Positions 35,845 through 55,100 of a DNA stretch of 64,000 nucleotides are shown here, piece by piece. Below the pieces are notes generated by a model, which was not told the DNA's origin, made no database searches, and saw nothing but the letters and a program-made list of their open reading frames with translations. Source of the stretch: Alphaproteobacteria bacterium. Lineage in GTDB: Bacteria; Pseudomonadota; Alphaproteobacteria; UBA828. Location of the stretch: NCBI GenBank assembly GCA_965214705.1, contig OZ243972.1, positions 1,824,001-1,888,000 on the forward strand, in the 5' to 3' direction. Both the position numbers and the translations under genes were made by a program. Positions within the stretch are counted from its first letter, which is position 1. Each line of letters starts with the position of its first letter.

Positions 35845-36515
35845 GAGCGCCAGGCTAACTCTGTCGTGGATAGCCGGTGAAAGTCCGGTGAAGGGAAGGA
35901 CTAACGAACCACCCTTGCCTTGAGCCGTGCGTCGGCCTTCGCGAGGAGGCAGGCGAAGCGTCGGTAGAGGTGCGCGTGGGCAGGACATTGAGCACCGAAA
36001 ATGCCGTCATTCGGAGTGCCGAGGCCATCCAGAAGGTCGAAGGCAACACCGGCCGCCCGCTTTCGTGAGGGCCGGCAGGGCTCCGCGGTGTCCAAGACCC
36101 CAGGCACGCGCGTACGTCCACACAGGGGACCTGGGAGGCCTCTTCATCACCCGTGCCTCAGAGTGCGGGTCGTGACGGGAAGGGTGGATGCCCATAGCCG
36201 TCGATGTACGATGGGGAGGAATCTGACTCGGTCGTAGTACCGTTGAAACGGGGGAACAAAGGGGCGTGACAACCTTGGCGGACTTCGTGGAGGAAAGGAC
36301 CGGGGCCAACGGGAGATCGGGGACCTGAAGCATGTGCCGGGCACAGAACCGGGTAAGCATGTCACAGGAGGGTCTCCGAACACGCCGCCGTGCGAGACGT
36401 CGCAAGAGCGACGAGAGTGCGCCGGACGTCTGACCGGAGGCAGGAGCCGGATGCCTTAGCGGGCACGTCCGGATCTGCGCGGGGGGCGCTGGGTAACCAG
36501 CGTCCCTACCGCGAA
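35845..36515 (+). ncRNA. ORF-less group II intron, copy 1 (671 nt)
   Basis: Starts GAGCG; DV/DVI GAGCCGGATGCCTTAGCGGGCACGTCCGGATCTGCGCGGGGGG...CCCTACCGCGAA; EBS1 CCAGAA (36029-36034) complements upstream TTCTGG. Confidence 0.88.
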
Positions 36516-37186
36516 GAGCGCCAGGCTAACTCTGTCGTGGATAGCCGGTGAAAGTCCGGTGAAGGGAAGGACTAACGAACCACCCTTGCCTTGAGCCGTG
36601 CGTCGGCCTTCGCGAGGAGGCAGGCGAAGCGTCGGTAGAGGTGCGCGTGGGCAGGACATTGAGCACCGAAAATGCCGTCATTCGGAGTGCCGAGGCCATC
36701 CAGAAGGTCGAAGGCAACACCGGCCGCCCGCTTTCGTGAGGGCCGGCAGGGCTCCGCGGTGTCCAAGACCCCAGGCACGCGCGTACGTCCACACAGGGGA
36801 CCTGGGAGGCCTCTTCATCACCCGTGCCTCAGAGTGCGGGTCGTGACGGGAAGGGTGGATGCCCATAGCCGTCGATGTACGATGGGGAGGAATCTGACTC
36901 GGTCGTAGTACCGTTGAAACGGGGGAACAAAGGGGCGTGACAACCTTGGCGGACTTCGTGGAGGAAAGGACCGGGGCCAACGGGAGATCGGGGACCTGAA
37001 GCATGTGCCGGGCACAGAACCGGGTAAGCATGTCACAGGAGGGTCTCCGAACACGCCGCCGTGCGAGACGTCGCAAGAGCGACGAGAGTGCGCCGGACGT
37101 CTGACCGGAGGCAGGAGCCGGATGCCTTAGCGGGCACGTCCGGATCTGCGCGGGGGGCGCTGGGTAACCAGCGTCCCTACCGCGAA
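36516..37186 (+). ncRNA. ORF-less group II intron, copy 2 (head-to-tail duplicate)
   Basis: Apparently identical to copy 1, 671-bp period, no spacer. Confidence 0.88.
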
Positions 37187-40021: not shown

Positions 40022-40025
40022 GGTT

Positions 40026-40067
40026 AAGGGTTGGGCAGGCTCTCTCTCGAGAGCCTGCCCAACCCTT
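40026..40067. repeat. Perfect 19-bp-stem terminal hairpin
   Basis: AAGGGTTGGGCAGGCTCTC-tctc-GAGAGCCTGCCCAACCCTT. Confidence 0.95.
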
Positions 40068-40185
40068 TTGAACGGAGGCGCGGGCCACGAGAGGCGAAGT
40101 TGAGCGTAAGCGTTACGCAGACCCCATGCCGGAATCTGGGTTGACTACGAGGGGGACTTGTTGAGGAGCGCCGTGAGCGCGCGAG

Positions 40186-41901
40186 TCAATTTGTCTCGGG
40201 CTCGAAGTTCCACGGCAGCAGTTCCTGGATTTTGGACTGCGGGTGACCCTTGGCGATCTTCTCGAGCGTGCTCCGCATCCAGGCGTAAGGCTCGACGCCG
40301 TTCATCTTGCAGGTCTCGATCAGCGATGCGATGCGGGCCCAGGCTTGCGCACCCTCGTCGTTGCCGGCGAAGAGCGCATTCTTGGCGGTGAGCTTCAGCG
40401 GGCGGATTCGGTTTTCCACCAGGTTCGAGTCGATCTCGACGCGGCCGTCGTGCAGGAACTCCAGCAGCCCGTCCCACTGGTTGGCGATATAGGTGAGCTT
40501 CTCGCCGAGACGCGAGCGCGGTGAGACCCGCGAGCGCTGTTCGTCGAGCCAGACACCGAAGGCGTTCACGATCGGCGCCGACTCCTCCCAGCGGATCGCC
40601 TGACGCGTCGCCGGCGGCTCGCCCCGGATCTTCTCCTCGATCGCATAGAGCGTCGCGATCCGCTTCAGGCCAGCCAGCGCGATCGGCGAGGCGCTCGAGT
40701 CGTACACCTCTTTCAGCTTGCGCCTGACGTGCGCCCAGCACAGAGCCCGCGTCACGGGGCCGCCGGGCCGGTCCGGCCGCGCCAGGATGTTGTGGCCCGA
40801 GTAGGCGTCGAGCTGCACCGTCCCCGAAAAGCCCTTCAAGAGCCTGGCGCCATACTTGCCGCCGCGACCGGGCTCATAGCGATAGACAACGCCCGGCGGG
40901 TCGGCGCCGCTCCAGTGGCGCTCGTCGCGCACAAGGGTCCACATGTAGCCCGTCTTCGTCTTGCCCCGGCCCGGGTCGAGAACGCGGATCGTGGTCTCGT
41001 CCAGACCCAGGTGATCCGACTTCTTCAGCTCATCCTTCAGGCAAGCGACCACGGGGCGCAGGTGAAACGACGCCTGCCCCACCCACGTCGCCAGCGTCGC
41101 ACGGTGAACCTCGATCCCCGAGCGCTCGTAAATCTGCGACTGACGGTAGAGCGGGCAATGATCGCCGTACTTCGCGATCAGCACCTGCGCCAGAAGAGCC
41201 TCGGTGGGAAGGCCGCCCTCCACCAGAGAGGCGGGCGCCGACGCCTGCACCACCCCGCCGCCCTTGCACTTGTTGCAGGCGTAGCGGGGGCGCACGGTCT
41301 CGATGACGGTGAACTTCGCCGGCTCATAGTCCAGCCGCTCGCTGCGGTCCTCGCCGATCTTCGTCATCTCGCCGCAGCCGCAGGGGCACATGATCGTGTC
41401 CGGCTCGATCACCTCCTCGCGCCGGTCGACCTGGGGCCCGAAGCGCACCCCGCTGCGCGACCCCCGGGAAGAGCGCCGCCGGCGCTTGCCGCCAGCCCCC
41501 TCGTCCTGCTCCTGGTCATCTGCCTCGGGCCGACCGCCGGCTTCAGCGATCGCCGCCCAAAACTCCTCGAACGTAAGCTGGCGCTCGTCCTCGTTGAGCT
41601 TCTCGGAGCGCGGACCGAACAGCGCCTTCCTGAGCTCCTTGTTGAGATGCTCAAGCCGGCTGATCTGCTCCGCGCTGTGCGCGTTCTCGGCCTCCAGCCG
41701 TGCCGCCCGCGCTTCCGCCGTCTGCCTCGCCGCCTCCGCCGCGCCGCGTGCCTGCTCCGCTTCGCATAGGGCTGCTTCGGTCGCACGGCGCGCCGCGCGC
41801 TCCTCGGCAAGCTCCGCCTGCAGGGTCGCCAGCGCCGCCGAAACCACCGCAGGCGACGGCGAACCGGCGCTGCTGAGGGGTGAGGGCGTGACCTTCGGCA
41901 T
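40186..41901 (-). CDS. tnpC: IS66 transposase TnpC
   Basis: LFGPRSEK, CPCGC, GLDETT, LDAYSG, CWAHVRRK, DSNLVENRIRP, ELLPWN. Confidence 0.95.
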   Translation of the reverse strand: MPKVTPSPLSSAGSPSPAVVSAALATLQAELAEERAARRATEAALCEAEQARGAAEAARQTAEARAARLEAENAHSAEQISRLEHLNKELRKALFGPRSEKLNEDERQLTFEEFWAAIAEAGGRPEADDQEQDEGAGGKRRRRSSRGSRSGVRFGPQVDRREEVIEPDTIMCPCGCGEMTKIGEDRSERLDYEPAKFTVIETVRPRYACNKCKGGGVVQASAPASLVEGGLPTEALLAQVLIAKYGDHCPLYRQSQIYERSGIEVHRATLATWVGQASFHLRPVVACLKDELKKSDHLGLDETTIRVLDPGRGKTKTGYMWTLVRDERHWSGADPPGVVYRYEPGRGGKYGARLLKGFSGTVQLDAYSGHNILARPDRPGGPVTRALCWAHVRRKLKEVYDSSASPIALAGLKRIATLYAIEEKIRGEPPATRQAIRWEESAPIVNAFGVWLDEQRSRVSPRSRLGEKLTYIANQWDGLLEFLHDGRVEIDSNLVENRIRPLKLTAKNALFAGNDEGAQAWARIASLIETCKMNGVEPYAWMRSTLEKIAKGHPQSKIQELLPWNFEPETN

Positions 41902-41994
41902 GGCCGATCCCTTAATCCGATTCGCCAATGCGTGACCAGGGAAAAGTGCAGGCGGGACCTCGACAAAAATCTGCGGACCCGCCTGCGTCTCGCC

Positions 41995-42345
41995 TCACTC
42001 CGCCGCCAGCGGGCGGCGAACCGGGCGGGCCTTCACCCGGCGCCAGTCGAGGCCCTCGAAGAGAGCCTCGAACTGGCCCTTCGTAAGGCGAATCACACCG
42101 TCCTCGATCCGGGGCCAGGCGAAGCGGCCTTGCTCCAGACGCTTGTAGGTCATCACCAGACCGGTCCCGTCCCAGGTGAGAAGCTTGAGCCTGTCCCCGC
42201 GGCGCGAGCGGAAGATCACGATCACCCCGGAATAGATATCGAGGTCCAGCTCCCTCGCCGCCGTCGCCGCAAGCGCGTCGTGGCCGCGACGAAAATCAAC
42301 CGGACGCGTCGCCAACACGATGCGAAGCGAGGGCACCGCGATCAT
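41995..42345 (-). CDS. tnpB: IS66 accessory protein TnpB
   Basis: PVDFRRGHDAL, FRSRRGDRLKLLTWDGTG, KRLEQGRFAWP. Confidence 0.95.
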   Translation of the reverse strand: MIAVPSLRIVLATRPVDFRRGHDALAATAARELDLDIYSGVIVIFRSRRGDRLKLLTWDGTGLVMTYKRLEQGRFAWPRIEDGVIRLTKGQFEALFEGLDWRRVKARPVRRPLAAE

Positions 42346-42944
42346 GACGACGCACGACCCAGGCCCGAGGCCACAGCCACGATCCGATCGACCGCGCTCT
42401 CCACCGGAAGGCGAACGACGACGCCCAGCGCCTCAATCGCGACCGTCCGCTCGGACGCAGACCCGTCAACTACAACCGGAATATAGGGGGGCGAAGACCC
42501 GGCTCCCTGCCGATCGCCACCAGCGTCACTCGCCGCCTGGCGACGCCAGGTGCGCAGCGTCTTCTCGCTGATGCCGTGACGGCGGGCAACTGCCGATATC
42601 GATGCATCCGGGCGCTCGCTCTCCGCAACAATCCGCGCCTTCACATCAGCCGGCCAAGGCCGGCCACGCCGCTTCCCGGAAGCCGCTGACCGACTGCGCC
42701 ACTGACGAAGAGTTTGTGCGCTGATGCCGTGGCGAGCCGCGACCTCCTTCTGCACAACTCCCGGCCTGTCGCTCTCCGCGACGATCCGTGCCTTCTCCTC
42801 GGCGGACCATGACCGCCGAGTGTGATCAGCCGGAACAGTTGCCGTAGATGGGGCTGCGGCAGATGGGGCGGCCTCTTCAGGCGCTCGCGCCTCGACCGAG
42901 TGACCGCCGAACTCGTGGCCACGCAGAAAATCCAAATCCTTCAT
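42342..42944 (-). CDS. tnpA: IS66 TnpA with two HTH domains
   Basis: WSAEEKARIVAES..VAARHGIS..LRQWR and WPADVKARIVAES..VARRHGIS..LRTWR. Confidence 0.85.
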   Translation of the reverse strand: MKDLDFLRGHEFGGHSVEARAPEEAAPSAAAPSTATVPADHTRRSWSAEEKARIVAESDRPGVVQKEVAARHGISAQTLRQWRSRSAASGKRRGRPWPADVKARIVAESERPDASISAVARRHGISEKTLRTWRRQAASDAGGDRQGAGSSPPYIPVVVDGSASERTVAIEALGVVVRLPVESAVDRIVAVASGLGRASS

Positions 42945-43266
42945 CGCGATGCCTCCTCCAAGGCTCCTTGCCAAGGCCAAGAGTCAGCCGCGAAATCAGA
43001 TGCGTTGGAAGTATGGGGCCTCGATACCGCTTACAGTTGAGCTATGTGGAAAGTGCGCTGATGTCAGCGTCAGGCGGCATCCACCGGCAGCAGAGTTGCG
43101 CATGAGATCGACGCTCGCGCCGGCCTTTCGGCAGGCATGCGGGCGCACGCTGCGAGGACTGAGCGGGGTGTGAGCCGAGGGCTGTCAGCCCGGCCCAAGC
43201 GGAGACAGGTTCGGTCGTGCGTCGGCGCTTTGGCGCCGTTGCGCGGGGCCGAAGCGAGCGGGCGTC

Positions 43267-44508
43267 TCACGGTTTCCCCCTGTGGGTCGGCGGCACGGCC
43301 GGCGGACCGCGCGTCGAGCGGGGCTCATGGCGGCGGCGGATTTCGCGGACGAGGCGCATGACGCCGCCGCAGTGGGGGCAGGCCACGGGCGCGGTGTCGA
43401 TCACGGTCTCTTCGTCGGGCTCGGCCCGAGCGCCGCCCACGCTTTCCTCGGGGACGGCGCAGCCGAGGGCGCCGAGAGTCTGGCGTGCTCTCTCCAGCGT
43501 GCTGGCGCGGCAGCCGTTGGCGAGAATGCCGAAGTAGCGGATGCGGTGCATGCCGTCCGGCAGGACGTGCATCAGGAAGCGGCGGATGAACTCGTCTGCG
43601 CTCACGGTGGCGATGCCGTAGCGCGGCTTTCTCTGCCCCGGCGCCTTGGGCTTGCGGTGGCGGAAGGAGACCGTCTCGCCGTCGAAGGAGACGATGCGGC
43701 TGTCGGAGATGGCGATCCTGTGCGTGTAGTGCGAGAGGTACCGGAAGACCTGCTCAGGCCCGCGGAAGGGCCGCTTGGCGTAGACCACCCAGTCCCTGGC
43801 CCGGGCGGCGGCAAGCGTGGCGTGGAACTCGCCGGGATTGGCGAGGTGGGCGAGGGTGCCGTGGAACTCCAGGTCCCCCCGGCCGTGGGCGCGGGCGAGC
43901 TCCTTGAGGAAGAGGCGGCGGAACAGGCTGCCGAGGACCTTGACGGGGGCGAGGAAGGTGGTGCTCCCCGTCTTCCACTCGCCGCTGTCTACGTCGAAGC
44001 CCGCGTTGGGCACGACCACGTGCAGGTGCGGGTGGAAGCGGAGCTTCTGATCCCAGGTATGGAGGACCGCGGTGCCGCCGATGCGCATGCCGCCGTGGCG
44101 GGGATCGGCGGCGATGGTGCGCAGGGTCTCGGCGACGGCCCGGAAGAGGATGTCGAACACCACCCTGCGGTTGCAGAAGGCAATGGCGGCAACCTCCTTG
44201 GGCAGGGTGAAGACCACATGGAAGTAGGGCACCGGCAGGATGTCCCCGGCGCGCTCCTCGCTCCAGAGGTTGGCGGCGAGACCCTGGCAGGTGGGGCAGT
44301 GGCGGTTGCGGCAGGAGTTGAAGAGCGGATGCTCGCGCCCGCAGCCCTCGCAGGCGTACATGTGGCCGCCGAGCACGGCGGTGCGGCACGCCTCGATGGC
44401 GCCCATGACCTTGAGCCGGGCGGCGTCGATGCGCCCTTTGTGGCGCTCACGGAAAGCGGCGCCGGCGCGGCGGAGGATCTCCGCCACGCCCGCGCGTTCG
44501 GCCTCCAC
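43267..44508 (-). CDS. IS91-like (Y2 HUH) transposase with zinc-binding domain
   Basis: CRT..LGGH, SCRNRHCPTCQ, YFHVVFTLP, LHTW..HPHLH, YLSHYTHR, HVLP.G..RIRYFG. Confidence 0.93.
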   Translation of the reverse strand: MEAERAGVAEILRRAGAAFRERHKGRIDAARLKVMGAIEACRTAVLGGHMYACEGCGREHPLFNSCRNRHCPTCQGLAANLWSEERAGDILPVPYFHVVFTLPKEVAAIAFCNRRVVFDILFRAVAETLRTIAADPRHGGMRIGGTAVLHTWDQKLRFHPHLHVVVPNAGFDVDSGEWKTGSTTFLAPVKVLGSLFRRLFLKELARAHGRGDLEFHGTLAHLANPGEFHATLAAARARDWVVYAKRPFRGPEQVFRYLSHYTHRIAISDSRIVSFDGETVSFRHRKPKAPGQRKPRYGIATVSADEFIRRFLMHVLPDGMHRIRYFGILANGCRASTLERARQTLGALGCAVPEESVGGARAEPDEETVIDTAPVACPHCGGVMRLVREIRRRHEPRSTRGPPAVPPTHRGKP

Positions 44509-44514
44509 GCGCCG

Positions 44515-45393
44515 TCAGTTGCGCAACGCTGCGAAGCCTGAGATCGGGTGGTCGAGGCCCTCGAACATCTTGCCGGTGACGCGGGCGTAGTGACGGGTCG
44601 TGTTCGCGCTTCGATGGCCGAGCATGTCCCGGATCACCTCGATATCGCCGCCGCGCTCGAGGAGATGGGTCGCCGCCGAATGGCGCAGGCAATGGAAGGT
44701 GTAGCTGCGGTCGAGCTCGGCAATGTCGCGCGCCCTCCTGAAGGCGGCCTGCAAGGTCTCCGTTGCGATGGGCCTGTCGAGCGAGACGCCGTAGAAGAGC
44801 CAGCTCGTCGGACGCGGCCAGATGTTCCTGTAGTAGGCGCGCAAGTAGTGGATGACGCTGTCCGGCAACGGTGCCATTCTCTCGGTGCCGCCTTTGCCGG
44901 AGGGGATGTGTAGCAGCTTCTTCTCCGACAGGATGTCGCCGACCTTGATGGCCAAGGTCTCGGAGATGCGGAGCCCGCCGCCATAGCCGGTGACAATGGC
45001 AGCACGGTGGCGGAGGTCGGGCGTCGCAAGGATGAGGTGCTCGACCTCCTGCTCCGACATGTAGCGCGGCAGCTTGCCGGGCTTCTTGCGGGAGCGCAGG
45101 CCGGCGACGTGGTCAGGCCAGCCGAGTGTGTCGATGTAGAGGAAGTTCAGCGCGGCGAAGGAGACGTTGGTCGTGCCCGGACTGAGCCCCTTGTCGATCC
45201 GCCCCAGGTACCACTGGCGCACCTGCTCGGCGTCGAGCTCGTCCGGCGAGGCGTCGTAGTACCTGGCCAGGTTCTTGATCTCGCAGATGTAGGCCTTGGA
45301 CGTGCTCGCGGCCAGATTGGCGATGCGGAGCTGCTCCTCCATGCGCTGGCGAAGAGGGGTGACGGTGTTCGTGTCGCACGCGGTCCCGGTCAT
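44515..45393 (-). CDS. Tyrosine recombinase (Xer/IntI-like) paired with the IS91-like transposase
   Basis: PLRQRM, GLRISE, GKGGTER, HCLRHSAATHLLE, LGH, TTRHY. Confidence 0.93.
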   Translation of the reverse strand: MTGTACDTNTVTPLRQRMEEQLRIANLAASTSKAYICEIKNLARYYDASPDELDAEQVRQWYLGRIDKGLSPGTTNVSFAALNFLYIDTLGWPDHVAGLRSRKKPGKLPRYMSEQEVEHLILATPDLRHRAAIVTGYGGGLRISETLAIKVGDILSEKKLLHIPSGKGGTERMAPLPDSVIHYLRAYYRNIWPRPTSWLFYGVSLDRPIATETLQAAFRRARDIAELDRSYTFHCLRHSAATHLLERGGDIEVIRDMLGHRSANTTRHYARVTGKMFEGLDHPISGFAALRN

Positions 45394-45624
45394 TATCGAT
45401 CTCCCTGGATCGCGACGGCGCGCCGCCGGACCGATCCGGCGACGGTCCGTCGCAGGGGTCGATGCTAACCACTGGTGATCGGGAGGCTGCTGGGGATCCG
45501 CCACTCGACGGGCGGAGCGCCACTGACGCAACCGGGAAGCGAACGCACAGGGCAAACGGCACCCGCGACGCCTCGGAAATGAATGAACTCTACGCCGCTA
45601 ACTCCGCGTAGCGGCTTCGTTCAA

Positions 45625-46917
45625 GCTGGTTGGGACGGCATAGTATCGAAGCCATCCGTCCACGACCCTCCCAAGCCATTTTGCAACCTCGTACCGGTCA
45701 TGGTGCATCCTTCGGCGCAGTTCGGCCTTGATGCGCTTGAGGGTTCGGTTGACCCGGCTTCGCATCGGTTTCCGGCCCAGACCGGGACGTCCGGTCCTCG
45801 TGGTCCGGCAGTAATGCGTGAACCCGAGGAAGTCGAACGTTTCGGGACGCCGCTCGCCTCGCGCCCGCCGGCGTGCGATCGCCCGCTGGCCAAACTCGAT
45901 GAGCCGCGTCTTGTCCGGGTGGAGGTCGAGCGAGAACAAAGCCAGCCTCGCCTTCAAGTCGCGCAGGAACCGTTCCGCGTCGCTCTTGTGCTCGAAACCG
46001 ACCACAAAATCATCGGCGTAACGCACGATGATCGTGTCGCCGCAGGCCGTCCGCGAACGCCATTTCTGGAACCACAGGTCGAGCACATAGTGGAGGTAGA
46101 CGTTCGCGAGAATCGGCGAAGCCACCGCCCCTTGCGGGGTGCCCACCAGCGTGTCTGACCATGCGCCCTCTTCGATGACGCCCGCGTTGAGCCACTTGGC
46201 GATCAGCCGGAGTGCCCGCCGATCCCCGATGCGATGGCCCAAGAACCGGAGCGTCCAGTTCCTGTCCAGGTTATCGAAGAACCCACGGATGTCGGCGTCA
46301 ACGATCCAGTTGACCCGGCGTCGGTCGATCCCGTACGCCAGAGCATCGAGCGCGTCGTGCGCCCCACGCCCCGGACGGAACCCATAGCTGAACCCGAGGA
46401 AGGCCGGCTCGTAAATTGGCGTCAGGATAATCTCCGTCACCGCCTTCTGGACGATCTTGTCCTCTAGCGCGGCGACGCCGAGCGGTCGTGTCCCGCCGTC
46501 TGGCTTGGGTATCTCTACCCGCCGGACCGGCGGCGCCCGATACGCTCCGGTCTGTACGCGACGGTGAAGGTCGAGCAGCCGCTCTTCCAGCCCCTCCGCG
46601 TACTGAGCCCATGTCATGCCGTCTACCCCCGCTGCGGCGTCCCGCTTCAGCGCGTGGAAGGCCCAGCGCAGCGCGTCCGGCGTGACATGATGCAAGAGCG
46701 CCGTCAGCTTCTCCCGCGGCTTCCTCGTTGCAGTTTGCCGTATCCGCTCGGCGGCCTGGGACACGCTTTCCCGGCTCTGCGTCCGGCGCGTGCTTTCGCG
46801 TCGCGGATTCCTCTCGGTTCCGGCCCTTCGCTTCATCGGCTCCGCCGGACCTCGCGGCCCCTTGTTCGCCGACTTCATCGCTACTATGGCCGAATCAGAT
46901 TGCTTCGACTCGTACAT
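45625..46917 (-). pseudogene. ltrA: Group II intron reverse transcriptase/maturase, 5' part
   Basis: AAGVDG, IPKPDGGTRPLG, SYGFRPGR, GTPQG, RYADD, FDFLGF; cut after VPTS; no endonuclease domain. Confidence 0.92.
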
Positions 46918-47277
46918 CTTCGATTCGGATATCCTCCTTTCTTCCGCGGCCCCGGTACGACCACCGGGGCAAGTCGAAGCCCTCCCGAGTCCCGGCACAG
47001 GGGTGTACGTGCGTCCATGGATTCCTCAGACAACGCGGAGCCCCGCAGTGCCTCACCAGAGCGGTCCTGCAGGTGTCGCCTTCGGCCGATGAGAAAACCT
47101 CGGCACTCCGGACCATAACATTTTCGATGCTCAATCATCCCGGCCACACGCGCCGCTACCGACGCTTCGACCGCACCCTCACGGATGCCGCCGCACGGCT
47201 CGCGGTGGAAGTAGTGGTTAGCCTTTCCTTCCCGTCGGACTCTCACCGACTCCCCTGCGCCAGTTAGCTCGGCGCTC

Positions 47278-47451
47278 CCCATCTTGGATTGAACTCATTT
47301 CTGTTGCGGTAAGTGTGGAGAATATCGAATTTCCGCCGTGAGAACGAACGGTGTCAACAGTGACGAATTTACCGTCAGCGACTGCATAAGTCGAACTCGC
47401 AACCATGGCGGTTGTCAGCATTCCGAAAGCAATATTGCGGAAGGTTTTCAT
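47278..47451 (-). CDS. 5' exon of a small secreted protein (intron host gene)
   Basis: AAGGAG RBS, signal-like MKTFRNIAFGMLTTAMVASSTYAVA; low GC. Confidence 0.6.
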
Positions 47452-47978
47452 TGGAAGTTTCTCCTTTCGTGGTTTCAGCGGTGATGTTCTCATTAGCCCG
47501 AATTATTTGTGTCTGGTTTGATTTTGGGGTGGCGGACGTAGCGTAAGCCGTTGCTATCAGGTAGGAATTCGTTGTTCGAGCGTCTTCCTCTCCGCACAAC
47601 GAAAGTGCCACGCCCGCCATGACCAACGATAGCCTTCCCCCCTTTGATGTGCCAAGGCCAGGACCGGGGGCTGGCTTGATGGCCGGAACACCGGGAGCCG
47701 CCGCCATGCGGCCCGCGCCAAGCGAAGGCCCTGCGCCTACATCGACATTGAACGAAGCCGCTACGCGGAGTTAGCGGCGTAGAGTTCATTCATTTCCGAG
47801 GCGTCGCGGGTGCCGTTTGTTCTGTGCGTTCGCTTCCCGGTTGCGTCAGTGGCGCTCCGCCCGTCGGGTGGCGGATCCCCAGCAGCCTCCCGATCACCAG
47901 TGGTTAGCATCGACCCCTGCGACGGACCGTCGCCGGATCGGTCCGGCGGCGCGCCGTCGCGATCCAGGGAGATCGATA

Positions 47979-48857
47979 ATGACCGGGACCGCGTGCGACA
48001 CGAACACCGTCACCCCTCTTCGCCAGCGCATGGAGGAGCAGCTCCGCATCGCCAATCTGGCCGCGAGCACGTCCAAGGCCTACATCTGCGAGATCAAGAA
48101 CCTGGCCAGGTACTACGACGCCTCGCCGGACGAGCTCGACGCCGAGCAGGTGCGCCAGTGGTACCTGGGGCGGATCGACAAGGGGCTCAGTCCGGGCACG
48201 ACCAACGTCTCCTTCGCCGCGCTGAACTTCCTCTACATCGACACACTCGGCTGGCCTGACCATGTCGCCGGCCTGCGCTCCCGCAAGAAGCCCGGCAAGC
48301 TGCCGCGCTACATGTCGGAGCAGGAGGTCGAGCACCTCATCCTTGCGACACCCGACCTCCGCCACCGTGCTGCCATTGTCACCGGCTATGGCGGCGGGCT
48401 CCGCATCTCCGAGACCTTGGCCATCAAGGTCGGCGACATCCTGTCGGAGAAGAAGCTGCTGCACATCCCCTCCGGCAAAGGCGGCACCGAGAGAATGGCA
48501 CCGTTGCCGGACATCGTCATCCACTACTTGCGCGTCTACTACAGGAACATCTGGCCGCGTCCGACGAACTGGCTCTTCTACGGCGTCTCGCTCGACAGGC
48601 CCATCGCAACGGAGACCTTGCAGGCCGCCTTCAGGAGGGCGCGCGACATTGCCGAGCTCGACCGCAGCTACACCTTCCATTGCCTGCGCCATTCGGCGGC
48701 GACCCATCTCCTCGAGCGCGGCGGCGATATCGAGGTGATCCGGGACATGCTCGGCCATCGAAGCGCGAACACGACCCGTCACTACGCCCGCGTCACCGGC
48801 AAGATGTTCGAGGGCCTCGACCACCCGATCTCAGGCTTCGCAGCGTTGCGCAACTGA
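47979..48857 (+). CDS. Tyrosine recombinase, copy 2
   Basis: Near-identical to 44515-45393. Confidence 0.93.
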   Translation: MTGTACDTNTVTPLRQRMEEQLRIANLAASTSKAYICEIKNLARYYDASPDELDAEQVRQWYLGRIDKGLSPGTTNVSFAALNFLYIDTLGWPDHVAGLRSRKKPGKLPRYMSEQEVEHLILATPDLRHRAAIVTGYGGGLRISETLAIKVGDILSEKKLLHIPSGKGGTERMAPLPDIVIHYLRVYYRNIWPRPTNWLFYGVSLDRPIATETLQAAFRRARDIAELDRSYTFHCLRHSAATHLLERGGDIEVIRDMLGHRSANTTRHYARVTGKMFEGLDHPISGFAALRN

Positions 48858-49160
48858 CGGCGCGTGGAGGCCGAACGCGCGGGCGTGGCGGAGATCTTCC
48901 GCCGCGCCGGCGCCGCTTTCCGTGAGCGCCACAAAGGGCGCATCGACGCCGCCCGGCTCAAGGTCATGGGCGCCATCGAGGCGTGCCGCACCGCCGTGCT
49001 CGGCGGCCACATGTACGCCTGCGAGGGCTGCGGGCGCGAGCATCCGCTCTTCAGATACCATGAGCACGGTGGCACCGAATCGATTCTGGCGGTTAGACAA
49101 GCTCGGAGAGAAGGCCAGCACCTTCTCTCCGAGCGGAATCGTCAACAACGGAGTGGACGG

Positions 49161-50357
49161 ATGTCGGATGGTCCAGACACGACCGCGCTGACAGGCGCAA
49201 GTAGTAGCACGATTTATGTCGCGGTGGAGATCAGCCTCAAATCGTGGATCGTTGGCGTGCATTGCCCGGATGCCTCGGGTGGCAGCATCAGCATCCACAC
49301 ACTGGCTGCTGCCGACACGGCGGGACTGTTGGATCTCGTCGGGTCGGTGCGGGAACGGGTGGCGAGGGAGCTCGGCGCCCGTCCTCGGGTGATGCTGACC
49401 TACGAGGCGGGCTACGAGGGGTTCTGGCTTGCCCGCGATATCGAGCGCCGTGACGCGGAGATCGATATCTTCATGAACGATCCGGCGAGCCTGCGGGTGA
49501 ACCGGCGCGCCAAGAAGAAAAAGACCGACCGTATCGACGCGAGGAGGATGGTTCGGGCTCTGAAGGCATGGGACCAAGGCGATTCGGAGGCCATGTCCTG
49601 GGTGCGCGTGCCCGATGTGGACCAGGAGGATGCCAAGCGCCTGCTGCGCGAGAGGGACACGCTGATCAGCGAGCGTACCCGCGTCAACAACCGGATCAAA
49701 GGGCTCTTGCAGTTGCACGGCATCTTCGATCTGGCGCCGCGCAAGCCGGACTTCCTCGAACGCCTCGCGACCGCGCGGACGGGCTATGGGGCGCCGTTGC
49801 CGCCGCGTGCGCGGGCAGAGATTGAGAGGGCGGTGGGGATGCTTCGCCTGGTTGAGGAGCATATCGAGATGATCGAGGCCGAGAAGAGGGCCCTGCTGAA
49901 GGCTGGCCGGAAAGCCCAGGACGCGACCAATCGTGACGGGACGGCGATGATCGCGGCGCTTACGCGCATCCATGGCATCGGCCTCAATGACGCCACACTG
50001 CTGGCTGGCGAGGTGTTCTATCGGGACTTCCGCAATCGCCGGGAGTTGGGCAGCTGGGCCGGGTTGACGTCGGTGCCGTGGGCGAGCGGAGATGTCGACC
50101 ACGATCTTGGCATCAGCAAGGCCGGCCCCTCGCATGTCAGGAAGCACATGATCCAGATGGCTTGGCGCTGGCTGAAGCTGCAACCGGAAAGCGCGATCAC
50201 GAAGTGGTTCCACGCCTACGTCGCCAGGGATGCCGGTGGCGGGAGGGACCGGCGAGCGAGGAAGCGGGCGATCGTGGGGGTCGCGCGCAAGCTGCTGATC
50301 GCGCTGTGGCGCTATGCCACCCAAGGACTGGTGCCTGAGGGCGCCATCGTCTCCTGA
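49161..50357 (+). CDS. IS110-family recombinase/transposase
   Basis: VAVEIS, YEAG..GFWL, KTDRIDA, GLTSVPWASG, ISKAG, AIVGVARKLL. Confidence 0.93.
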   Translation: MSDGPDTTALTGASSSTIYVAVEISLKSWIVGVHCPDASGGSISIHTLAAADTAGLLDLVGSVRERVARELGARPRVMLTYEAGYEGFWLARDIERRDAEIDIFMNDPASLRVNRRAKKKKTDRIDARRMVRALKAWDQGDSEAMSWVRVPDVDQEDAKRLLRERDTLISERTRVNNRIKGLLQLHGIFDLAPRKPDFLERLATARTGYGAPLPPRARAEIERAVGMLRLVEEHIEMIEAEKRALLKAGRKAQDATNRDGTAMIAALTRIHGIGLNDATLLAGEVFYRDFRNRRELGSWAGLTSVPWASGDVDHDLGISKAGPSHVRKHMIQMAWRWLKLQPESAITKWFHAYVARDAGGGRDRRARKRAIVGVARKLLIALWRYATQGLVPEGAIVS

Positions 50358-50702
50358 GGGCACCGGCCGAACGAACGGGAAAATACAGGAGGTTCCGACG
50401 TGGTCGGACGCGGCCGCGGAGGATGCCGGGCAAGGCGTGTGACCGGGCAAGAGTTGGGTCGCCGCTTGGCACCGTTCTACAGATGGGTCCCGCCTCCCGG
50501 AACGTCACCACCGCTTGGATGCGGTATTGGGGTCACGGAGCCGGCAAGCGCCGGAGTTCCGAACCGGATAAGAGCTGAGCAGCGTGGCGGATCGCTGCGT
50601 GGAAACGACGTTCTGCCTGGACATCGGCCGCGGATTCGAGTGGAGAGATTGCGAATGCCATTGACGTAGATGAAGCCGGGCCTTGCGGAGAGAGCTCATA
50701 AG
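50358..50702 (+). ncRNA. Candidate bridge/seek RNA region of the IS110 element
   Basis: 3' non-coding region in the IS1111 position; contains ATAAGAG (donor junction match) and GAGTTG/GGAGTT (complement of target CAACTCC). RNA boundaries unknown. Confidence 0.55.
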
Positions 50703-50866
50703 AGCCGGCAAGCGCCGGAGTTCCGAACCGGATAAGAGCTGAGCAGCGTGGCGGATCGCTGCGTGGAAACGACGTTCTGCCTGGACATCGGCCGCGGATT
50801 CGAGTGGAGAGATTGCGAATGCCATTGACGTAGATGAAGCCGGGCCTTGCGGAGAGAGCTCATAAG
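50539..50866 (+). repeat. Tandem duplication of the 164-bp IS110 right end
   Basis: 50539-50702 repeated at 50703-50866, each ending GCTCATAAG. Confidence 0.93.
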
Positions 50867-52177
50867 AACTCCTGCCGCAACCGCCACTGCCCCACCTGCC
50901 AGGGTCTCGCCGCCAACCTCTGGAGCGAGGAGCGCGCCGGGGACATCCTGCCGGTGCCCTACTTCCATGTGGTCTTCACCCTGCCCAAGGAGGTTGCCGC
51001 CATTGCCTTCTGCAACCGCAGGGTGGTGTTCGACATCCTCTTCCGGGCCGTCGCCGAGACCCTGCGCACCATCGCCGCCGATCCCCGCCACGGCGGCATG
51101 CGCATCGGCGGCACCGCGGTCCTCCATACCTGGGATCAGAAGCTCCGCTTCCACCCGCACCTGCACGTGGTCGTGCCCAACGCGGGCTTCGACGTAGACA
51201 GTGGCGAGTGGAAGACGGGGAGCACCACCTTCCTCGCCCCCGTCAAGGTCCTCGGCAGCCTGTTCCGCCGCCTCTTCCTCGAGGAGCTCGCCCGCGCCCA
51301 CGGCCGGGGGGACCTGGAGTTCCACGGCACCCTCGCCCACCTCGCCAATCCCGGCGAGTTCCACGCCACGCTTGCCGCCGCCCGGGCCAGGGACTGGGTG
51401 GTCTACGCCAAGCGGCCCTTCCGCGGGCCTGAGCAGGTCTTCCGGTACCTCTCGCACTACACGCACAGGATCGCCATCTCCGACAGCCGCATCGTCTCCT
51501 TCGACGGCGAGACGGTCTCCTTCCGCCACCGAAAGCCCAAGGCGCCGGGGCAGAGAAAGCCGCGCTACGGCATCGCCACCGTGAGCGCCGACGAGTTCAT
51601 CCGCCGCTTCCTGAGGCACGTCCTGCCGGACGGCATGCACCGCATTCGCTACTTCGGCATCCTCGCCAACGGCTGCCGCGCCAGCACGCTGGAGAGAGCA
51701 CGCCAGGCTCTCGGCGCCCTCGGCTGCGCCGCCCCCGAGGGAAGCGTGGACGGCGCTCGGGCCGAGCCCGACGAAGAGCCCGAGATCGGCACCGCGCCCG
51801 TGGCCTGCCCCCACTGCGGCGGCGTCATGCGCCTCGTCCGCGAAATCCGCCGCCGCCATGAGCCCCGCTCGACGCGCGGCCCGCCGGCGCTGCCGCCGAC
51901 CCACAGGGGGAAACCGTGAGACGCCCGCTCGCTTCGGCCCCGCGCAACGGCGCCAAAGCGCCGACGCACGACCGAACCTGTCTCCGCTTGAGCCGGGCTG
52001 ACAGCCCTCGGCTCACACCCCGCTCAGTCCTCGCAGCGTGCGCCCGCATGCCTGCCGAAAGACCGGCGCGAGCGTCGATTTTATGCGCAACTCTGCTGCC
52101 GGTGGATGCCGCCTGACGCTGACATCAGCGCACTTTCCACATAGCTCAACTTCGCCTCTCGTGGCCCGCGGCTTCGT

Positions 52178-55100
52178 TCAAAAGGGTTGGGCAGGCTCTC
52201 GAGAGAGAGCCTGCCCAACCCTTAACCTTCCCCGGTCCCGGCTCATTCGCAGGGCGGCCTGCTTTTCCTGTTCCTGCGCGACCCTGTTGCGGATCTCCTC
52301 TTCCCGCTCCCGAACTACATCCGGGCCTGCGCCGGCGGCGCCCAGATGGGCGGCGAGTTCGTGTTGCGGCATTTCCTTCCTGATTGCCGCCGCCTCGTCG
52401 AGAACCTCCTTCTCCTTCTGCCCGCAGTCCTGCCGGGCCTGTCGACGCTCCTCGAACGAGTTGGTCGTGACGTCCATCTGCGTCAGAGCGTTCCGCGCGC
52501 GCTCGAACTCCGCGGCCCGTTCGAGGAACGCATGGACCCGATCCCGGTTGAGCGCCCAGCGTTCGTCCCTGGCGAGAAGGCCGTCGACCGTGTCGCGCAG
52601 CCTCTCCGGCAGATGCGGCCTGGCATCGAGCGAGCGGGCGCGCTCCATCAGCGCGGCATAGGCGCGGCTGTCGAAGCCGATCCCGCCCGTCTTCTCCGCC
52701 CACTGCTGCACGACCGAAGACAGCACGTCCGTCTCCCGTGCCTCGACCTCGATCAGCGCGCTGTCGAGGCGGTCCGTTCCCTCGGCCAGCGCCTTGCGCT
52801 CGGCCGGTAAGGCGGCGAGATGGGGCGCATGAGGGGCGTCGTTCGCCAGCATCGCGCGGGCCTCGGCGAGCAGGGGCTCCGCCTGCCGCCGCCAGCCGGT
52901 CAGGGCGACGAGCGTCGCGGGACGCTCGGGGCAGTCCGCCGTCAGCGCGTCAAGCCGTGCGGGCCATTCCCGGATCTGCCGGCAGACCGGTTCGCACCGG
53001 GCGTGATAGTCGAGCCATGAGGCGACAACCTCCTGCGTGCGCGCCGGCAGCGCCGCCTGCGCGGAGAGCGCCTCGGCCCGTGCCATCAGCTCTCCGTAGC
53101 GCGGCACGTGGAACGCCTCGGTCCCGGTCTCGCGCTCCTGCCGGTTTACCTCCTTCGTCAGCCACCCGAATGCCCGGTAGCTGTCTTTCCTTAGCGCATC
53201 GCTGATTTCCTCCGCCGCCTCCCGGACAGCTTCGCGCCCGCCCGGCTCGGCGTCCAGGTAGGGCGCATGGACATCTTCCGGGCGCAGCATGTCCCCGGCC
53301 ATGGCCTCCAGCTTGACCCCTTCCTCGCGCCAGGACTGCCGCGCGGGATGGTCCGGATCGAGCCCGCCGGGCTCGTCCTGCGGCAGGTCCGCCGCCTGCC
53401 ACGCCGCGATACGGCCGGGCAGGGCGCGCACCTCGTCCGCCAGCGCCGTCTGCGCCGTATCGACCTCCCGCCATTCCGCCACCCCGCGCTGCGCCTGCGC
53501 ATCGAGTCCCTCGGCGACCGCGAGCCTTTCGCCAAGCGCCGCTACCTGCCGATAGCCCGGCGCGCAAATCTCCGGGACGACGCTCTCAGCCGCCCGTTCG
53601 CGAAGCGCGTGCCACGCCCGTTCGAACCGCCCGGCATCGTCGAGGAGGCGCGTGCGTTCGAGCATATCGACGGCGTCTTCCAGACCGGCGCGTCCGCCCG
53701 GCATGGCATGGAGGTGTCGGGCCACATCGCGATGCACCACCTCATGGTGTGCCGCCACGCGGTGGGCCGCTTCGCCGTCGGCCTCCACCAGACTCCGGCC
53801 TGCCTGTAGAAGCGCGGCCCCTTCATCGCGCCAGGCAGCATGTTCGGGGAGTTGCTCCACCGGCACTCCTTGCGAGGAGGCCGCCCAGCTGAGCTCCGGC
53901 CAGCGCCGCCAATGGTCCCGGATGCCCTCGACGAGACCGCGTACCTCGCGGTCGTGCGCGAGATGCTCCTCGTGTTTCGCCAGCATGGTGTCGGTGAGGC
54001 GGCGCATGTCCTCCGGCAGGTCCTCGATCTGCGCGAGCGCAGCAGCCTGGGCCATCGTGTCCCTGTAGCCCGGGAGGAGGAACGGAACGGTGTGCGTTGC
54101 CTCGCCCTCCTGCAGAAGCGCCCGCCAGTCCGCAGCCAGCGCCGCGAACTCTTCGGGGTCCACCACGGGGGGCTCGGACAGGTCGATCCCCAGCGCCTCC
54201 AGCGCCCCGTCCTCGCTCCGGTCGTATGCCATGCTCTCGATGAGCGCGTCGCGGTCGTCGGTCAGCAGCAGGAACTCTTCAGAGACCCGGCTGATCTCGA
54301 CATGGAACAGCTCGCGGTCGACCCAGCCGCCCGCGTCCAGCACCGCGATCGCCGCACGCGCCGTCCGGCCCTGCGCAGAATGCACGGTGGAACAGTAGGC
54401 ATGATCGAGATGGCGCAACTGCGGGTCGGCAAGCGCGAGACCGAACTCCCGGCCGCCCTCGCGGAAGAGCACCCGCCTGTAGCCGATCTCCACGATCTCC
54501 GCCTCGCCGCCATTGACCAGGTCCGGCCCCCGGGGATGCCTGCCGCGGCCGGGCGGGGCCTTGCGGTTGCGCGTCCAGCGGATCATATCGCCAGCGCGCA
54601 GCTCGATCCGCTCGGTGTCGCAGACGCTCAGATAGCGCGCCGCATTGCCCGAGGGCCGGAACCGGCGCTCGCCGTCCGCATGGGCCAGCACGACCCTGCC
54701 GTCGTCGTGGCCCATGACGGTGCAGACGTCGTTCGCGCGGCAGCCGAAGACGTCGCGGTGGAACACGACGGTGTCGCCGGGCTCGTAGCTGCGGATATCG
54801 GAAGCCAGCGCACGGGTGAGCCGCCGGTCGACCAGGCGGTCGACGGCCAAGGTGCGGCCCCGCAACACGCCTTCCTCCGCGAGCCCTTCGCGCACCGCCT
54901 CGTTTGCCTGCCGGCGGATTGCGTGCGTGGGGGCGAGGATCAGGGTGTCCGCCCGCTGCTCCGGCGCCAGCGTGAGCCAGCGCCGCGCCGCCTCGATGCC
55001 GAGCTCCTCGCGGGGCGCCTCGCGCACCCGGTTGCCCAGCGCCGCGATCGCCGCGCCCGGCTCCCCCTCCCTGACGCGGCCTACCGTCGCGCGCAGCTCC

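What the first reader, a model, noticed from the sequence alone, without database searches (positions are those of the whole stretch)
40022..52227. Tyrosine-recombinase + IS91-like HUH element with base-exact ends, terminal hairpin and TTCCC target
Seen: two near-identical inverted copies. Removing them restores the RT (ACCAGC|TTCCCG) and the relaxase tail (TCGACA|TTCCCC, giving RDRGMSM*). Both insert 5' of TTCCC with no duplication beyond a shared TT. The architecture is TTGAACGAAGCCGC - recombinase - Y2 transposase - ~250 nt non-coding - GCGGCTTCGTTCAA (14-bp IR, degenerate in copy 1) - perfect 19-bp hairpin - AACC. GCTTCCCG at 47832-47839 inside the element matches target 1. Established: IS91 moves by rolling circle without TSD; recombinase-HUH pairs are common but mechanistically poorly understood. 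Inference: HUH nicking at the hairpin end, with the recombinase acting at the IRs; the internal target match may be chance or a guide.
Basis: partly seen in the sequence, partly recalled or inferred. Interest (0 to 1): 0.75.

Follow-up and report, generated by a model that had tools for sequence, protein, structure and literature searches.

The report
IS91-type element with own recombinase
A 2.7-kb jumping gene carrying both a rolling-circle (HUH) transposase and a Xer-like tyrosine recombinase has spread to about 90 copies in this genome and lands at small dif-like inverted repeats, which hints that the recombinase, not the transposase, chooses and joins the target.

Summary
The element is real, but the target reading is wrong. 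The native unit is 2666 bp: TTGAACGAAGCCGC, a 292-aa Xer/integron-like tyrosine recombinase (YR), a 413-aa IS91-family Y2 transposase, about 250 nt non-coding, GCGGCTTCGTTCAA, a 19-bp hairpin, then AACC. The genome holds about 90 copies (58 of 86 paired copies are exactly 2666 bp).

Ends are base-exact without duplication: 20 of 25 informative paralogous empty sites are exact.

The target is not TTCCC (4 of 82 sites). It is an imperfect inverted repeat, CGNNCAA-N6-|TTGNNCG, with insertion at the right border of the 6-bp spacer. A weak right half is compensated by a strong left half. The halves do not base-pair within sites. This is the anatomy of a Xer/dif-type core site.

Sibling families keep the ends, and their hairpins show compensatory changes. 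Two of them insert at ATAA-N6-|TTAT sites.

The internal GCTTCCCG "guide" is chance.

Best model (inference, about 0.5): the HUH enzyme copies out a single-stranded circle. Its junction folds into an attC/CTXphi-attP-like hairpin, and the element's own YR pastes it in.

Membership in the IS91 family is firm. The YR-bearing subgroup is already catalogued.

The parts
47748..52227 (+). Copy 2 of the IS91-family element (4480 bp = 2666-bp native unit + 1813-bp nested IS, with 1 nt ambiguous at the junction)
47748..47761 (+). Left terminus TTGAACGAAGCCGC (terIS-side). It is the inverted repeat of 52168-52181. Its first 7 nt match the half-site consensus of the target.
   Evidence: I15; identical in 90 of 90 genome copies; conserved in sibling families
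47757..47781 (+). Small left-end hairpin: GCCGCTA..TAGCGGC, or alternatively TACGC..GCGTA
   Evidence: CCGC/GCGG changes to CTGC/GCAG in families B and C
47979..48857 (+). Tyrosine recombinase gene, 292 aa as called in public data (the ORF is open from 47817). Xer/integron-like.
   Evidence: Pfam Phage_integrase + SAM_4; NCBIfam Xer and IntI models match below their cut-offs; PDB XerC-like/XerD/IntI4; 292-aa homologues
48864..49053 (+). 5' part of the Y2 (HUH) transposase gene, cut by the IS110-family insertion
49054..50866 (+). Nested IS110-family element, with a 164-nt tandem duplication at 50538-50701 / 50702-50865. The same insertion point (element position 1306) is occupied in at least 14 other genome copies.
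50867..51919 (+). 3' part of the Y2 transposase gene
   Evidence: Pfam Y2_Tnp, E = 2e-54
52168..52181 (+). Subterminal inverted repeat GCGGCTTCGTTCAA. It ends in CGTTCAA, a left-type half-site.
52182..52223 (+). 19-bp perfect hairpin with loop GAGA. The arms contain TTGGGCAG / CTGCCCAA. TT..CAG is invariant across families while the inner bases covary.
52224..52227 (+). Terminal AACC. It forms a 4-nt bulge in the folded circle junction.
52228..52234 (+). Right half of the target at copy 2 (TTCCCCG)
40022..45624 (-). Copy 1 (5603 bp = 2666-bp unit + 2929-bp IS66-family element + 8-bp duplication). It is an older copy: 33 differences from copy 2.
44515..45393 (-). Tyrosine recombinase gene of copy 1
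43267..44508 (-). Intact Y2 transposase gene of copy 1 (413 aa). It carries the motifs HPHLH and YLSHY.
   Evidence: Pfam Zn_Tnp_IS91 + Y2_Tnp; NCBIfam NF033538, 383 bits against a cut-off of 125; alignment
40106..43034 (-). Nested IS66-family element (three ORFs), flanked by the duplication AGTTGAGC at 40098-40105 and 43035-43042
40022..40081 (-). Right end of copy 1: degenerate IR (40068-40081), hairpin (40026-40067), GGTT (40022-40025 on the + strand)
45625..47243 (-). Group II intron (RT ORF and ribozyme domains) that was interrupted by copy 1. This is context, not part of the element.
52228..57043 (-). TrwC-type relaxase gene whose last 7 codons were cut off by copy 2. This is context.

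Best explanation
FIRM PART. This is an insertion sequence of the IS91 family, in the subgroup that carries a tyrosine recombinase gene 6 nt upstream of the Y2 HUH transposase gene. The native unit is 2666 bp. It is or was recently very active: about 90 copies, most 99.8-100% identical. It inserts without duplication at base-exact ends.

INFERRED MECHANISM.
(1) The Y2 transposase nicks the bottom strand at the hairpin end (the oriIS side, downstream of its gene). As in IS91, it copies out a single-stranded circle whose junction reads ...GCGGCTTCGTTCAA-hairpin-AACC-TTGAACGAAGCCGC...
(2) This junction folds into a 14-bp stem, a 4-nt bulge and a 19-bp stem. The fold presents two duplex half-sites (TTGAACG:CGTTCAA and TTGGGCA:TGCCCAA) around a partly unpaired spacer. 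This resembles an integron attC site or the folded attP(+) of CTXphi.
(3) The element's own Xer-like recombinase binds this folded site and a double-stranded target that looks like a weak dif site, CGNNCAA-N6-TTGNNCG. It exchanges one pair of strands 3' of CAA on the bottom strand, at the arm/spacer border.
(4) Replication resolves the intermediate. That leaves the element between the 6-bp spacer and TTGNNCG, with nothing duplicated or lost.
For: FAMILY. Pfam Zn_Tnp_IS91 + Y2_Tnp. NCBIfam IS91 equivalog at 383 bits against a cut-off of 125. Motifs HPHLH and YLSHY conserved in 7 families.

COPY NUMBER AND ENDS. 93 full left-part and 87 full right-part blastn hits. 90 of 90 left ends and 92 of 93 right ends identical over 16 nt. 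58 of 86 paired copies are exactly 2666 bp.

NO DUPLICATION. Of 25 informative paralogous empty sites, 20 are exact.

TARGET. In 82 non-redundant sites: +1 T 68, +2 T 79, +3 G 40, +6 C 60, +7 G 49, and mirrored -7 A 38, -8 A 38, -12 G 41, -13 C 39. Against 18,509 genomic TTGNNCG control sites, A at -8 has p = 8.5e-9 and A at -7 has p = 4.6e-13, computed on 74 sites. There is no Watson-Crick covariation between the halves: mean 2.32 of 7 pairs against 2.51 in shuffles, so the target is not a hairpin. Compensation: A at -8 and at -7 in 9 of 11 sites that lack TT, against 25 of 63 sites that have TT, which is still above background at p = 1.9e-5 and 2.3e-8.

SIBLING FAMILIES. Family F (own genome) inserts at ACATAA-N6-|TTATGT. 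The left half sits at exactly 6 nt in 4 independent sites. Family B inserts at GAGATAA-GCGCCA-|TTATCTC. The same palindromic repeat is hit once at its left edge and once 6 nt past its right edge. A Skermanella plasmid copy sits at GCGCAA-GATCGA-|TTGAAC.

ENDS OF OTHER COPIES AS TARGETS. The element also inserts exactly at the left terminus of sibling or own copies: AACC|TTGAAC... in 5 of 83 right flanks.

HAIRPIN. 86% of cells paired, 5 pairs with changes on both sides, 0 of 500 shuffles reach the covariation score. TT..CAG / CTG..AA are invariant.

JUNCTION FOLD. -48.4 kcal/mol with the predicted bulge.

BOTH GENES UNDER PURIFYING SELECTION. Ka/Ks 0.32-0.61 for the YR and 0.28-0.47 for the transposase.

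LITERATURE. IS91 inserts its bottom-strand ssDNA circle next to a short target at oriIS (PMC13181058, passages read). YRs of IS91 elements group with integron integrases (bioRxiv 10.1101/542381, passage read).
Against: No experiment and no circle junction was seen. Logan contigs cannot show one.

The canonical IS91 transposase does everything alone, so the recombinase is not needed a priori.

The dyad rule is not universal. Family A shows TTC on the right in 5 of 6 sites but no AA at -8/-7 in any of 6. Families D and E are too small to judge.

The folded site has an unusual spacer (5 nt against 9 nt), and its half-site assignment is my reading, not a measured footprint.

Three empty-site comparisons show substitutions at +1..+3 and two show extra T's. 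A fixed recombinase crossover does not predict these; they need an imprecise HUH cut or paralogue SNPs.

The recombinase lacks the IntI-specific insertion that integron integrases use on attC.

An orientation bias relative to replication could not be tested because the genome has almost no GC skew.

No YR-less IS91 control set was analysed for target symmetry.
Confidence: 0.5

Rival explanations
1. Canonical IS91 mechanism. The Y2 HUH transposase alone nicks, copies out and re-inserts the single strand, recognising CGNNCAA| on the bottom strand both at its own left end and at the target. The recombinase is an accessory: it resolves tandem multimers or cointegrates left by rolling-circle read-through, or it regulates.
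For: IS91, IS801 and IS1294 transpose without any recombinase. Their terIS cleavage tetranucleotide resembles their target tetranucleotide (PMC13181058), just as TTGAACG resembles TTGNNCG here. The right half of the target is much stronger than the left. Ragged ends fit imprecise HUH cleavage: extra T or TT at the right end in 2 copies, and missing T's at left ends in families A, B and C. Only 1 tandem pair among about 90 copies could mean that multimers are resolved.
Against: An ssDNA endonuclease gives no reason for a mirrored left half-site at a fixed 6-bp distance, nor for compensation between the halves. It also does not explain insertion either at the edge of a palindromic repeat or exactly 6 nt beyond its other edge. 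The conserved TT..CAG half-site inside the hairpin stem has no role in this model.
Confidence: 0.3
2. The recombinase does both excision and integration of a double-stranded circle by site-specific recombination. The Y2 protein only replicates the excised circle by rolling circle from the hairpin origin, so the element is a miniature integrative replicon (ICE-like logic).
For: The target has core-site anatomy. In the integrated state both junctions carry paired half-sites: CGNNCAA-N6-TTGAACG on the left and TGCCCAA-N9-TTGNNCG on the right. A tyrosine integrase is known to mobilise an ISCR2 unit by site-specific recombination (PMC9376610, passages read).
Against: A full two-strand exchange needs identical overlap regions, but the 6-bp spacers of the targets are unrelated to the element's terminal TTAACC. 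Excision would leave the copy number constant, whereas about 90 near-identical copies indicate replicative spread. The spacers of 5 and 9 bp in the duplex sites are outside the usual 6-8 bp; that usual range is recalled, not tested here.
Confidence: 0.12
3. One reading: a TTCCC-specific element whose internal GCTTCCCG acts as a guide for the target.
For: Both window copies abut TTCCC, and GCTTCCCG is present at 47832-47839.
Against: TTCCC occurs at 4 of 82 sites. The 8-mer occurs 8 times in the window against 5.7 expected, and 23 of 100 shuffles reach 8.
Confidence: 0.02

Closest known systems
IS91 / IS801 / IS1294 (IS91 family, rolling-circle HUH insertion sequences)
   Same: Y2 transposase with an N-terminal zinc domain. 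No target duplication. A short specific target abuts the end downstream of the transposase gene. Subterminal palindromes at both ends. The left-end sequence resembles the target.
   Different: This element has an extra tyrosine recombinase gene. Its target is TT(G)NNCG with a mirrored left half 6 bp away, instead of the CTTG/GTTC tetranucleotide. It has a 14-bp terminal/subterminal inverted repeat that flanks a perfect 19-bp hairpin.
IS91-family entries with an upstream 'phage integrase' ORF in ISfinder (names such as ISAzo26, ISMno23, ISSod25, ISShvi3, ISWz1 are recalled from memory, not from a call), and the 'integron-like' YR subgroup of Smyshlyaev et al. (bioRxiv 10.1101/542381)
   Same: Same gene pair and order. 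The pair is annotated in RefSeq, for example on Skermanella rosea plasmid pSR-1. The preprint states that YRs of IS91 elements are the closest homologues of IntI and lack its insertion.
   Different: I found no description of their ends, targets or the recombinase's role in the searches I ran. ISfinder and TnPedia themselves could not be consulted.
CTXphi and other IMEX (integrative mobile elements exploiting Xer); mechanism recalled from the literature
   Same: An HUH Rep makes ssDNA copies from the integrated form. A folded ssDNA hairpin creates the recombination site. There is a single strand exchange at a dif-type AA-N6-TT site, replicative resolution, and irreversible integration.
   Different: IMEX use the host XerCD and the single chromosomal dif site. 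This element encodes its own recombinase and uses many degenerate sites, so it behaves as a transposon.
Integron cassettes (attC x attI, IntI)
   Same: A folded bottom-strand hairpin with an unpaired spacer or bulge. The crossover is 3' of AA (|TT on the top strand). TTGAAC fits TTRRRY and GTTCAA fits RYYYAA; these core-site consensus sequences are recalled.
   Different: The recombinase lacks the IntI insertion and scores below the integron-integrase cut-offs. The stem is perfect, without extrahelical bases. G is avoided at -1 (2 of 82), where integrons have G.
GIsul2 integrase mobilising the ISCR2 'CR2-sul2' unit (PMC9376610)
   Same: A tyrosine recombinase moves an IS91/ISCR-type unit by site-specific recombination at sites that overlap the presumed terIS.
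   Different: There the integrase belongs to a genomic island and acts on 19-bp att sites at one chromosomal locus (guaA). Here the recombinase is part of the IS itself.

Membership tests
IS91 family | Y2 HUH transposase (Zn_Tnp_IS91 + Y2_Tnp) | tested here: met
   Pfam E = 4e-29 and 1.2e-54. NCBIfam NF033538 at 383 bits against a cut-off of 125.
IS91 family | HUH motif and two catalytic tyrosines (YxxxY) | tested here: met
   HPHLH and YLSHY are conserved in all 7 aligned family representatives. The motif names are recalled.
IS91 family | No target-site duplication | tested here: met
   20 of 25 informative empty-site paralogues are exact. 2 have 1-2 extra T and 3 have substitutions at +1..+3.
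IS91 family | Specific tetranucleotide target (CTTG/GTTC) next to oriIS | tested here: inconclusive
   A specific target abuts the end downstream of tnpA, but it is TT(G)NNCG plus a mirrored left half. T at the second position is shared with IS91.
IS91 family | Subterminal palindromes at oriIS and terIS | tested here: met
   19-bp hairpin at the right end and a small hairpin at the left end.
IS91 family | Rolling-circle transposition through an ssDNA circle | not testable with these tools
   Only contigs of public runs were available. No joints were reported.
Integron integrase (IntI) | NCBIfam integron-integrase model above its cut-off, with the IntI-specific insertion | tested here: not met
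   TIGR02249 at 132 bits against a cut-off of 265, and NF011946 at 77 against 435. The match to IntI4 (2a3v) is split into 2 stretches.
Chromosomal XerC / XerD | Equivalog score above the cut-off | tested here: not met
   XerC 136 against 335, and XerD 119 against 330. The fold relatives are XerC-like 4a8e and XerD 1a0p.
Tyrosine recombinase superfamily | Catalytic R..K..HxxR..H..Y | tested here: met
   LRISE, GKGG, HCLRHS, GHR and TTRHYAR are conserved in 7 families and align to XerD and XerC-like proteins. The residue roles are recalled.
IMEX / CTXphi-type integration | Insertion at a dif-type site (two inverted arms, 6-bp spacer) at the arm/spacer border | tested here: met
   CGNNCAA-N6-|TTGNNCG in 82 sites. 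ATAA-N6-|TTAT in families F and B. Not seen in family A (0 of 6).
IMEX / CTXphi-type integration | Use of the host XerCD and of a folded ssDNA attP | not testable with these tools
   The element encodes its own YR. The fold is predicted only.

The most novel reading that the evidence does not exclude
A two-enzyme single-strand transposon. An HUH rolling-circle transposase performs 'copy-out'. The element's own Xer-like tyrosine recombinase performs 'paste-in' of the folded hairpin junction into degenerate dif-like sites by a single strand exchange. This would be the transposon counterpart of CTXphi and integron-cassette integration. It would explain why a whole subgroup of IS91 elements carries a recombinase.
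Probability: 0.42. Interest if true: 0.8.

Novelty: new variant of a known kind. Interest (0 to 1): 0.62.

Why it matters
IS91/ISCR elements are major movers of resistance and catabolic genes, yet their mechanism is only partly known. The recombinase carried by one subgroup has no assigned role.

This genome offers a natural experiment with 82 independent insertions. It shows a Xer-type core-site anatomy at the target and matching half-sites in the element's hairpin end. That turns 'what does the recombinase do?' into a directly testable hypothesis.

If the hypothesis holds, it links three systems thought of separately: IS91 rolling-circle transposition, integron attC recombination and Xer-exploiting phages. 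It would also define a compact, self-contained ssDNA integration module.

If it does not hold, the element remains an ordinary but very successful member of a catalogued IS91 subgroup.

Tried and rejected
TTCCC target and internal guide: rejected.

Target as an ssDNA hairpin: rejected, because there is no covariation between the halves.

Palindromic logo as a mere mixture of two site classes: rejected, because the left half is still enriched among the 63 TT-bearing sites.

Orientation bias relative to replication, as a test for ssDNA targets. The cumulative GC skew is nearly flat and not V-shaped. The sign test on flank skew gave 35 against 51, 45 against 41 and 42 against 44 (p = 0.11, 0.75, 0.91). 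Uninformative.

Circle junctions in public data. The 4 runs laid were Logan contigs and gave no joints. This says nothing either way.

More insertion sites from relatives. 13 of 31 genomes, counting the window's own, had some match, but only the own genome has near-identical copies. About 80% relatives occur in G007 and G019. Families A and B have only 6 and about 6-8 copies in their genomes.

Near-identical copies in plasmids: none. 0 of 61 matching records covered 80% or more of the query.

Literature. Searches, with passages read, gave no description of ends, targets or recombinase function for the YR-bearing IS91 subgroup.

Family of the 2.09-kb IS: Pfam found nothing in its first 419 aa.

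A YR-less IS91 control for target symmetry was not done.

Full report
WHAT IS IN THE WINDOW

Two inverted copies of one element lie at 40022-45624 (- strand) and 47748-52227 (+ strand). The repeat finder splits their similarity into three blocks: 1306 nt at 99%, 1285 nt at 98% and 89 nt at 98%. The split arises because each copy carries a different nested insertion sequence.

- Copy 1 has a 2929-bp IS66-family element at 40106-43034. It has three ORFs (Pfam DDE_Tnp_IS66) and an 8-bp duplication, AGTTGAGC.
- Copy 2 has an 1813-bp IS110-family element at 49054-50866, inside the transposase gene (Pfam DEDD_Tnp_IS110 and Transposase_20). It ends in a 164-nt tandem duplication.

With these removed, both copies are 2666 bp and differ at 33 positions.

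The native unit, in order:
- TTGAACGAAGCCGC.
- A small hairpin.
- A tyrosine recombinase gene. Public gene calls give 292 aa; the ORF is open for 346 aa.
- Six nucleotides later, a 413-aa Y2 transposase gene.
- About 250 nt of non-coding sequence.
- GCGGCTTCGTTCAA.
- A perfect 19-bp hairpin with loop GAGA.
- AACC.

The transposase passes the NCBIfam IS91 equivalog (383 bits, cut-off 125). The recombinase matches the Xer and integron-integrase models but stays below all their cut-offs. Its closest solved relatives are an archaeal XerC-like protein, XerD and IntI4.

Copy 1 interrupts the RT of a group II intron (Rfam RF02005 at 47021-47243). Copy 2 cuts off the last seven codons of a TrwC relaxase.

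CENSUS IN THE GENOME

The window lies in a 7.9-Mb assembly of three contigs. blastn finds 93 full-length left parts and 87 full-length right parts.

All 90 left ends start with the same 16 nt. 92 of 93 right ends finish with the same 16 nt.

Of 86 copies whose two ends could be paired, 58 are exactly 2666 bp and 5 more are within 4 bp. The rest carry nested elements.

For 25 insertions an uninterrupted paralogue of the target exists elsewhere in the genome, mostly another IS copy.
- 20 are continuous across the junction with nothing duplicated or lost. These include three 120/120 matches for window copy 1.
- 2 have one or two extra T's at the right junction.
- 3 differ by substitutions at +1 to +3.

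THE TARGET

TTCCC is not preferred: 4 of 82 non-redundant sites.

The right flank reads T (68), T (79), G (40), N, N, C (60), G (49). This resembles the element's own left end, TTGAACG.

Unexpectedly, the left flank mirrors it at a fixed distance: A at -7 (38) and -8 (38), G at -12 (41), C at -13 (39). G is almost excluded at -1 (2). The consensus is CGNNCAA-N6-|TTGNNCG.

Against 18,509 genomic TTGNNCG sites used as control, the A's at -8 and -7 have p = 8.5e-9 and 4.6e-13, on 74 sites.

Within single sites the two halves are not complementary more often than in shuffles (2.32 against 2.51 pairs of 7). The target is therefore not a hairpin.

The halves compensate for each other. Sites without TT on the right have A at -8 and at -7 in 9 of 11 cases. 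Sites with TT still have them in 25 of 63.

Five of 83 right flanks begin TTGAAC. They include the left termini of two copies of a sibling family and of one own copy.

Two inverted 7-bp arms, a 6-bp spacer, additive half-sites and joining at the arm/spacer border are the anatomy of a Xer-type core site. The comparison with dif, ..ATAA-N6-TTAT.., is recalled.

RELATIVES

Six sibling families were found with 52-68% recombinase identity or about 80% DNA identity. They occur in other alphaproteobacterial genomes and in this genome.

All six keep these features:
- the left end TTGAACGAAGC(C/T)GC;
- the subterminal GC(G/A)GC(C/T)TCGTTCAA (one base differs in family E);
- a hairpin;
- a CCT(T/A)AA-type tail;
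- a flank that usually starts with TT.

In an alignment of seven right ends, 86% of hairpin cells pair. Five pairs change on both sides, and no shuffle of 500 reaches the covariation score. TT..CAG and CTG..AA in the stem are invariant while the bases between them covary. A protein-recognised half-site embedded in a stem would look like this.

Both genes are under purifying selection: Ka/Ks 0.32-0.61 and 0.28-0.47.

A more distant sibling in the same genome, family F, has about 10 copies. Its ends are the variants TTGAACTGAGCCGC on the left and GCGGCTCAGCTCAA on the right. It inserts at ACATAA-N6-|TTATGT. Four independent sites have the left arm exactly 6 nt from the insertion point.

Family B hits the same palindromic repeat once at its left edge and once 6 nt beyond its right edge.

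A RefSeq plasmid of Skermanella rosea carries the annotated pair 'tyrosine-type recombinase/integrase' plus 'IS91 family transposase', with GCGCAA-GATCGA-|TTGAAC at its left end.

Family A does not follow the left-half rule: 0 of 6 sites, although 5 of 6 have TTC on the right.

HOW IT PROBABLY WORKS

Shown:
- family membership;
- exact ends;
- no duplication;
- the target logo;
- conservation and covariation of the end structures.

Established for IS91 (PMC13181058, passages read):
- the transposase makes a bottom-strand ssDNA circle;
- that circle is the inserted form;
- the target lies next to oriIS;
- the terIS cleavage site resembles the target.

Inferred here: the HUH enzyme copies out the single strand. 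Its junction folds into a 14-bp stem, a 4-nt bulge and a 19-bp stem (-48.4 kcal/mol). This presents two duplex half-sites around a partly unpaired spacer. The element's own recombinase exchanges one pair of strands with a dif-like duplex target. Replication then resolves the intermediate.

The chemistry would give exactly the observed junctions. The logic is that of CTXphi and integron cassettes (recalled). A 2019 preprint places the recombinases of IS91 elements next to integron integrases.

The main rival is that the transposase does everything and the recombinase only resolves multimers. It explains the dominant right half and the ragged ends. It does not explain the mirrored left half, the compensation or the conserved half-site in the stem.

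I put the two-enzyme model at about 0.5, the canonical model at 0.3 and a recombinase-only integration/excision model at 0.12.

NOVELTY

The gene pair is catalogued. It is annotated in RefSeq and mentioned in the preprint. By my recollection it is also listed in ISfinder.

In seven literature searches I found no account of the ends, the target or the recombinase's role. Supplements, ISfinder and our own earlier findings (closed) could not be consulted.

I file it as a new variant of a known kind. The element itself is ordinary; the target anatomy is the interesting part.

LIMITS

- Nearly all the statistical weight comes from one family in one genome.
- No control set of YR-less IS91 elements was analysed.
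- No circle was observed.
- The replication-orientation test was uninformative.

Noticed in passing
window 49054-50866; genome copies listed: An IS110-family element sits at exactly element position 1306, inside the Y2 gene, in at least 14 further copies besides window copy 2. That count is 9 copies of 4316 bp, 3 of 7076 bp, and one each of 5759 and 16484 bp. The same break point appears as loose ends in contigs of two other public runs. Either the IS110 element targets this site repeatedly, or the composite is mobilised in trans.
   Followed up: partly
window 50538-50865: An exact 164-nt tandem duplication lies at the downstream end of the IS110-family insert. It is present only in the window copy (4480 bp against 4316 bp elsewhere). 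It lies in the non-coding end, where IS110-type elements carry a guide RNA; that last point is recalled.
   Followed up: no
G000, e.g. C3:1555947-1558046 (L037); 15 copies: A 2.09-kb IS with terminal inverted repeats and a 592-aa ORF. Pfam found no hit in its first 419 aa. 8 of its 15 copies sit in the TTAA of the terminal CCCTTAACC of the IS91-type element, so the hairpin end is a hotspot for a second IS.
   Followed up: partly
G000:C2:643960-649295 (junction in L106): This is the only head-to-tail pair of the element. Its junction is a perfect 37-bp-stem palindrome: a GGTT has been added opposite the AACC bulge and the loop is flipped (-55.2 kcal/mol). This suggests the junction existed as a folded hairpin or cruciform in vivo. 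The cause is unexplained.
   Followed up: partly
G000: C3:129047, C3:467098, C3:544222 (family D); C1:2528255, C1:2725597 (family E); about 10 copies such as C1:1988904 (family F): Three sibling recombinase + Y2 families coexist with the main one in the same genome. Family F targets dif-like palindromic repeats (TATGTTGAGCTCAACATA type).
   Followed up: yes
window 36000-36771 and 47021-47243: Group II intron ribozyme domains (RF02005) occur three times in 18 kb. The intron hit by copy 1 has three intact paralogues elsewhere in the genome.
   Followed up: partly
whole genome G000: The genome is saturated with insertion sequences: many targets of the element are other IS copies, some with 20-50 paralogues. 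It has almost no cumulative GC skew. CheckM-type contamination is given as 8.7%.
   Followed up: no
public runs X1-X19 (coded): The near-identical 2666-bp element (93% or more of sampled words) is held by 11 of the 24 runs listed, from 7 studies under 7 different organism labels. It is multi-copy in at least three of them, with summed contig depths of 110-460.
   Followed up: partly
window 52178-52227: Because of copy 2, the relaxase ORF now reads 50 nt into the element's hairpin end instead of ending with its own last seven codons.
   Followed up: no
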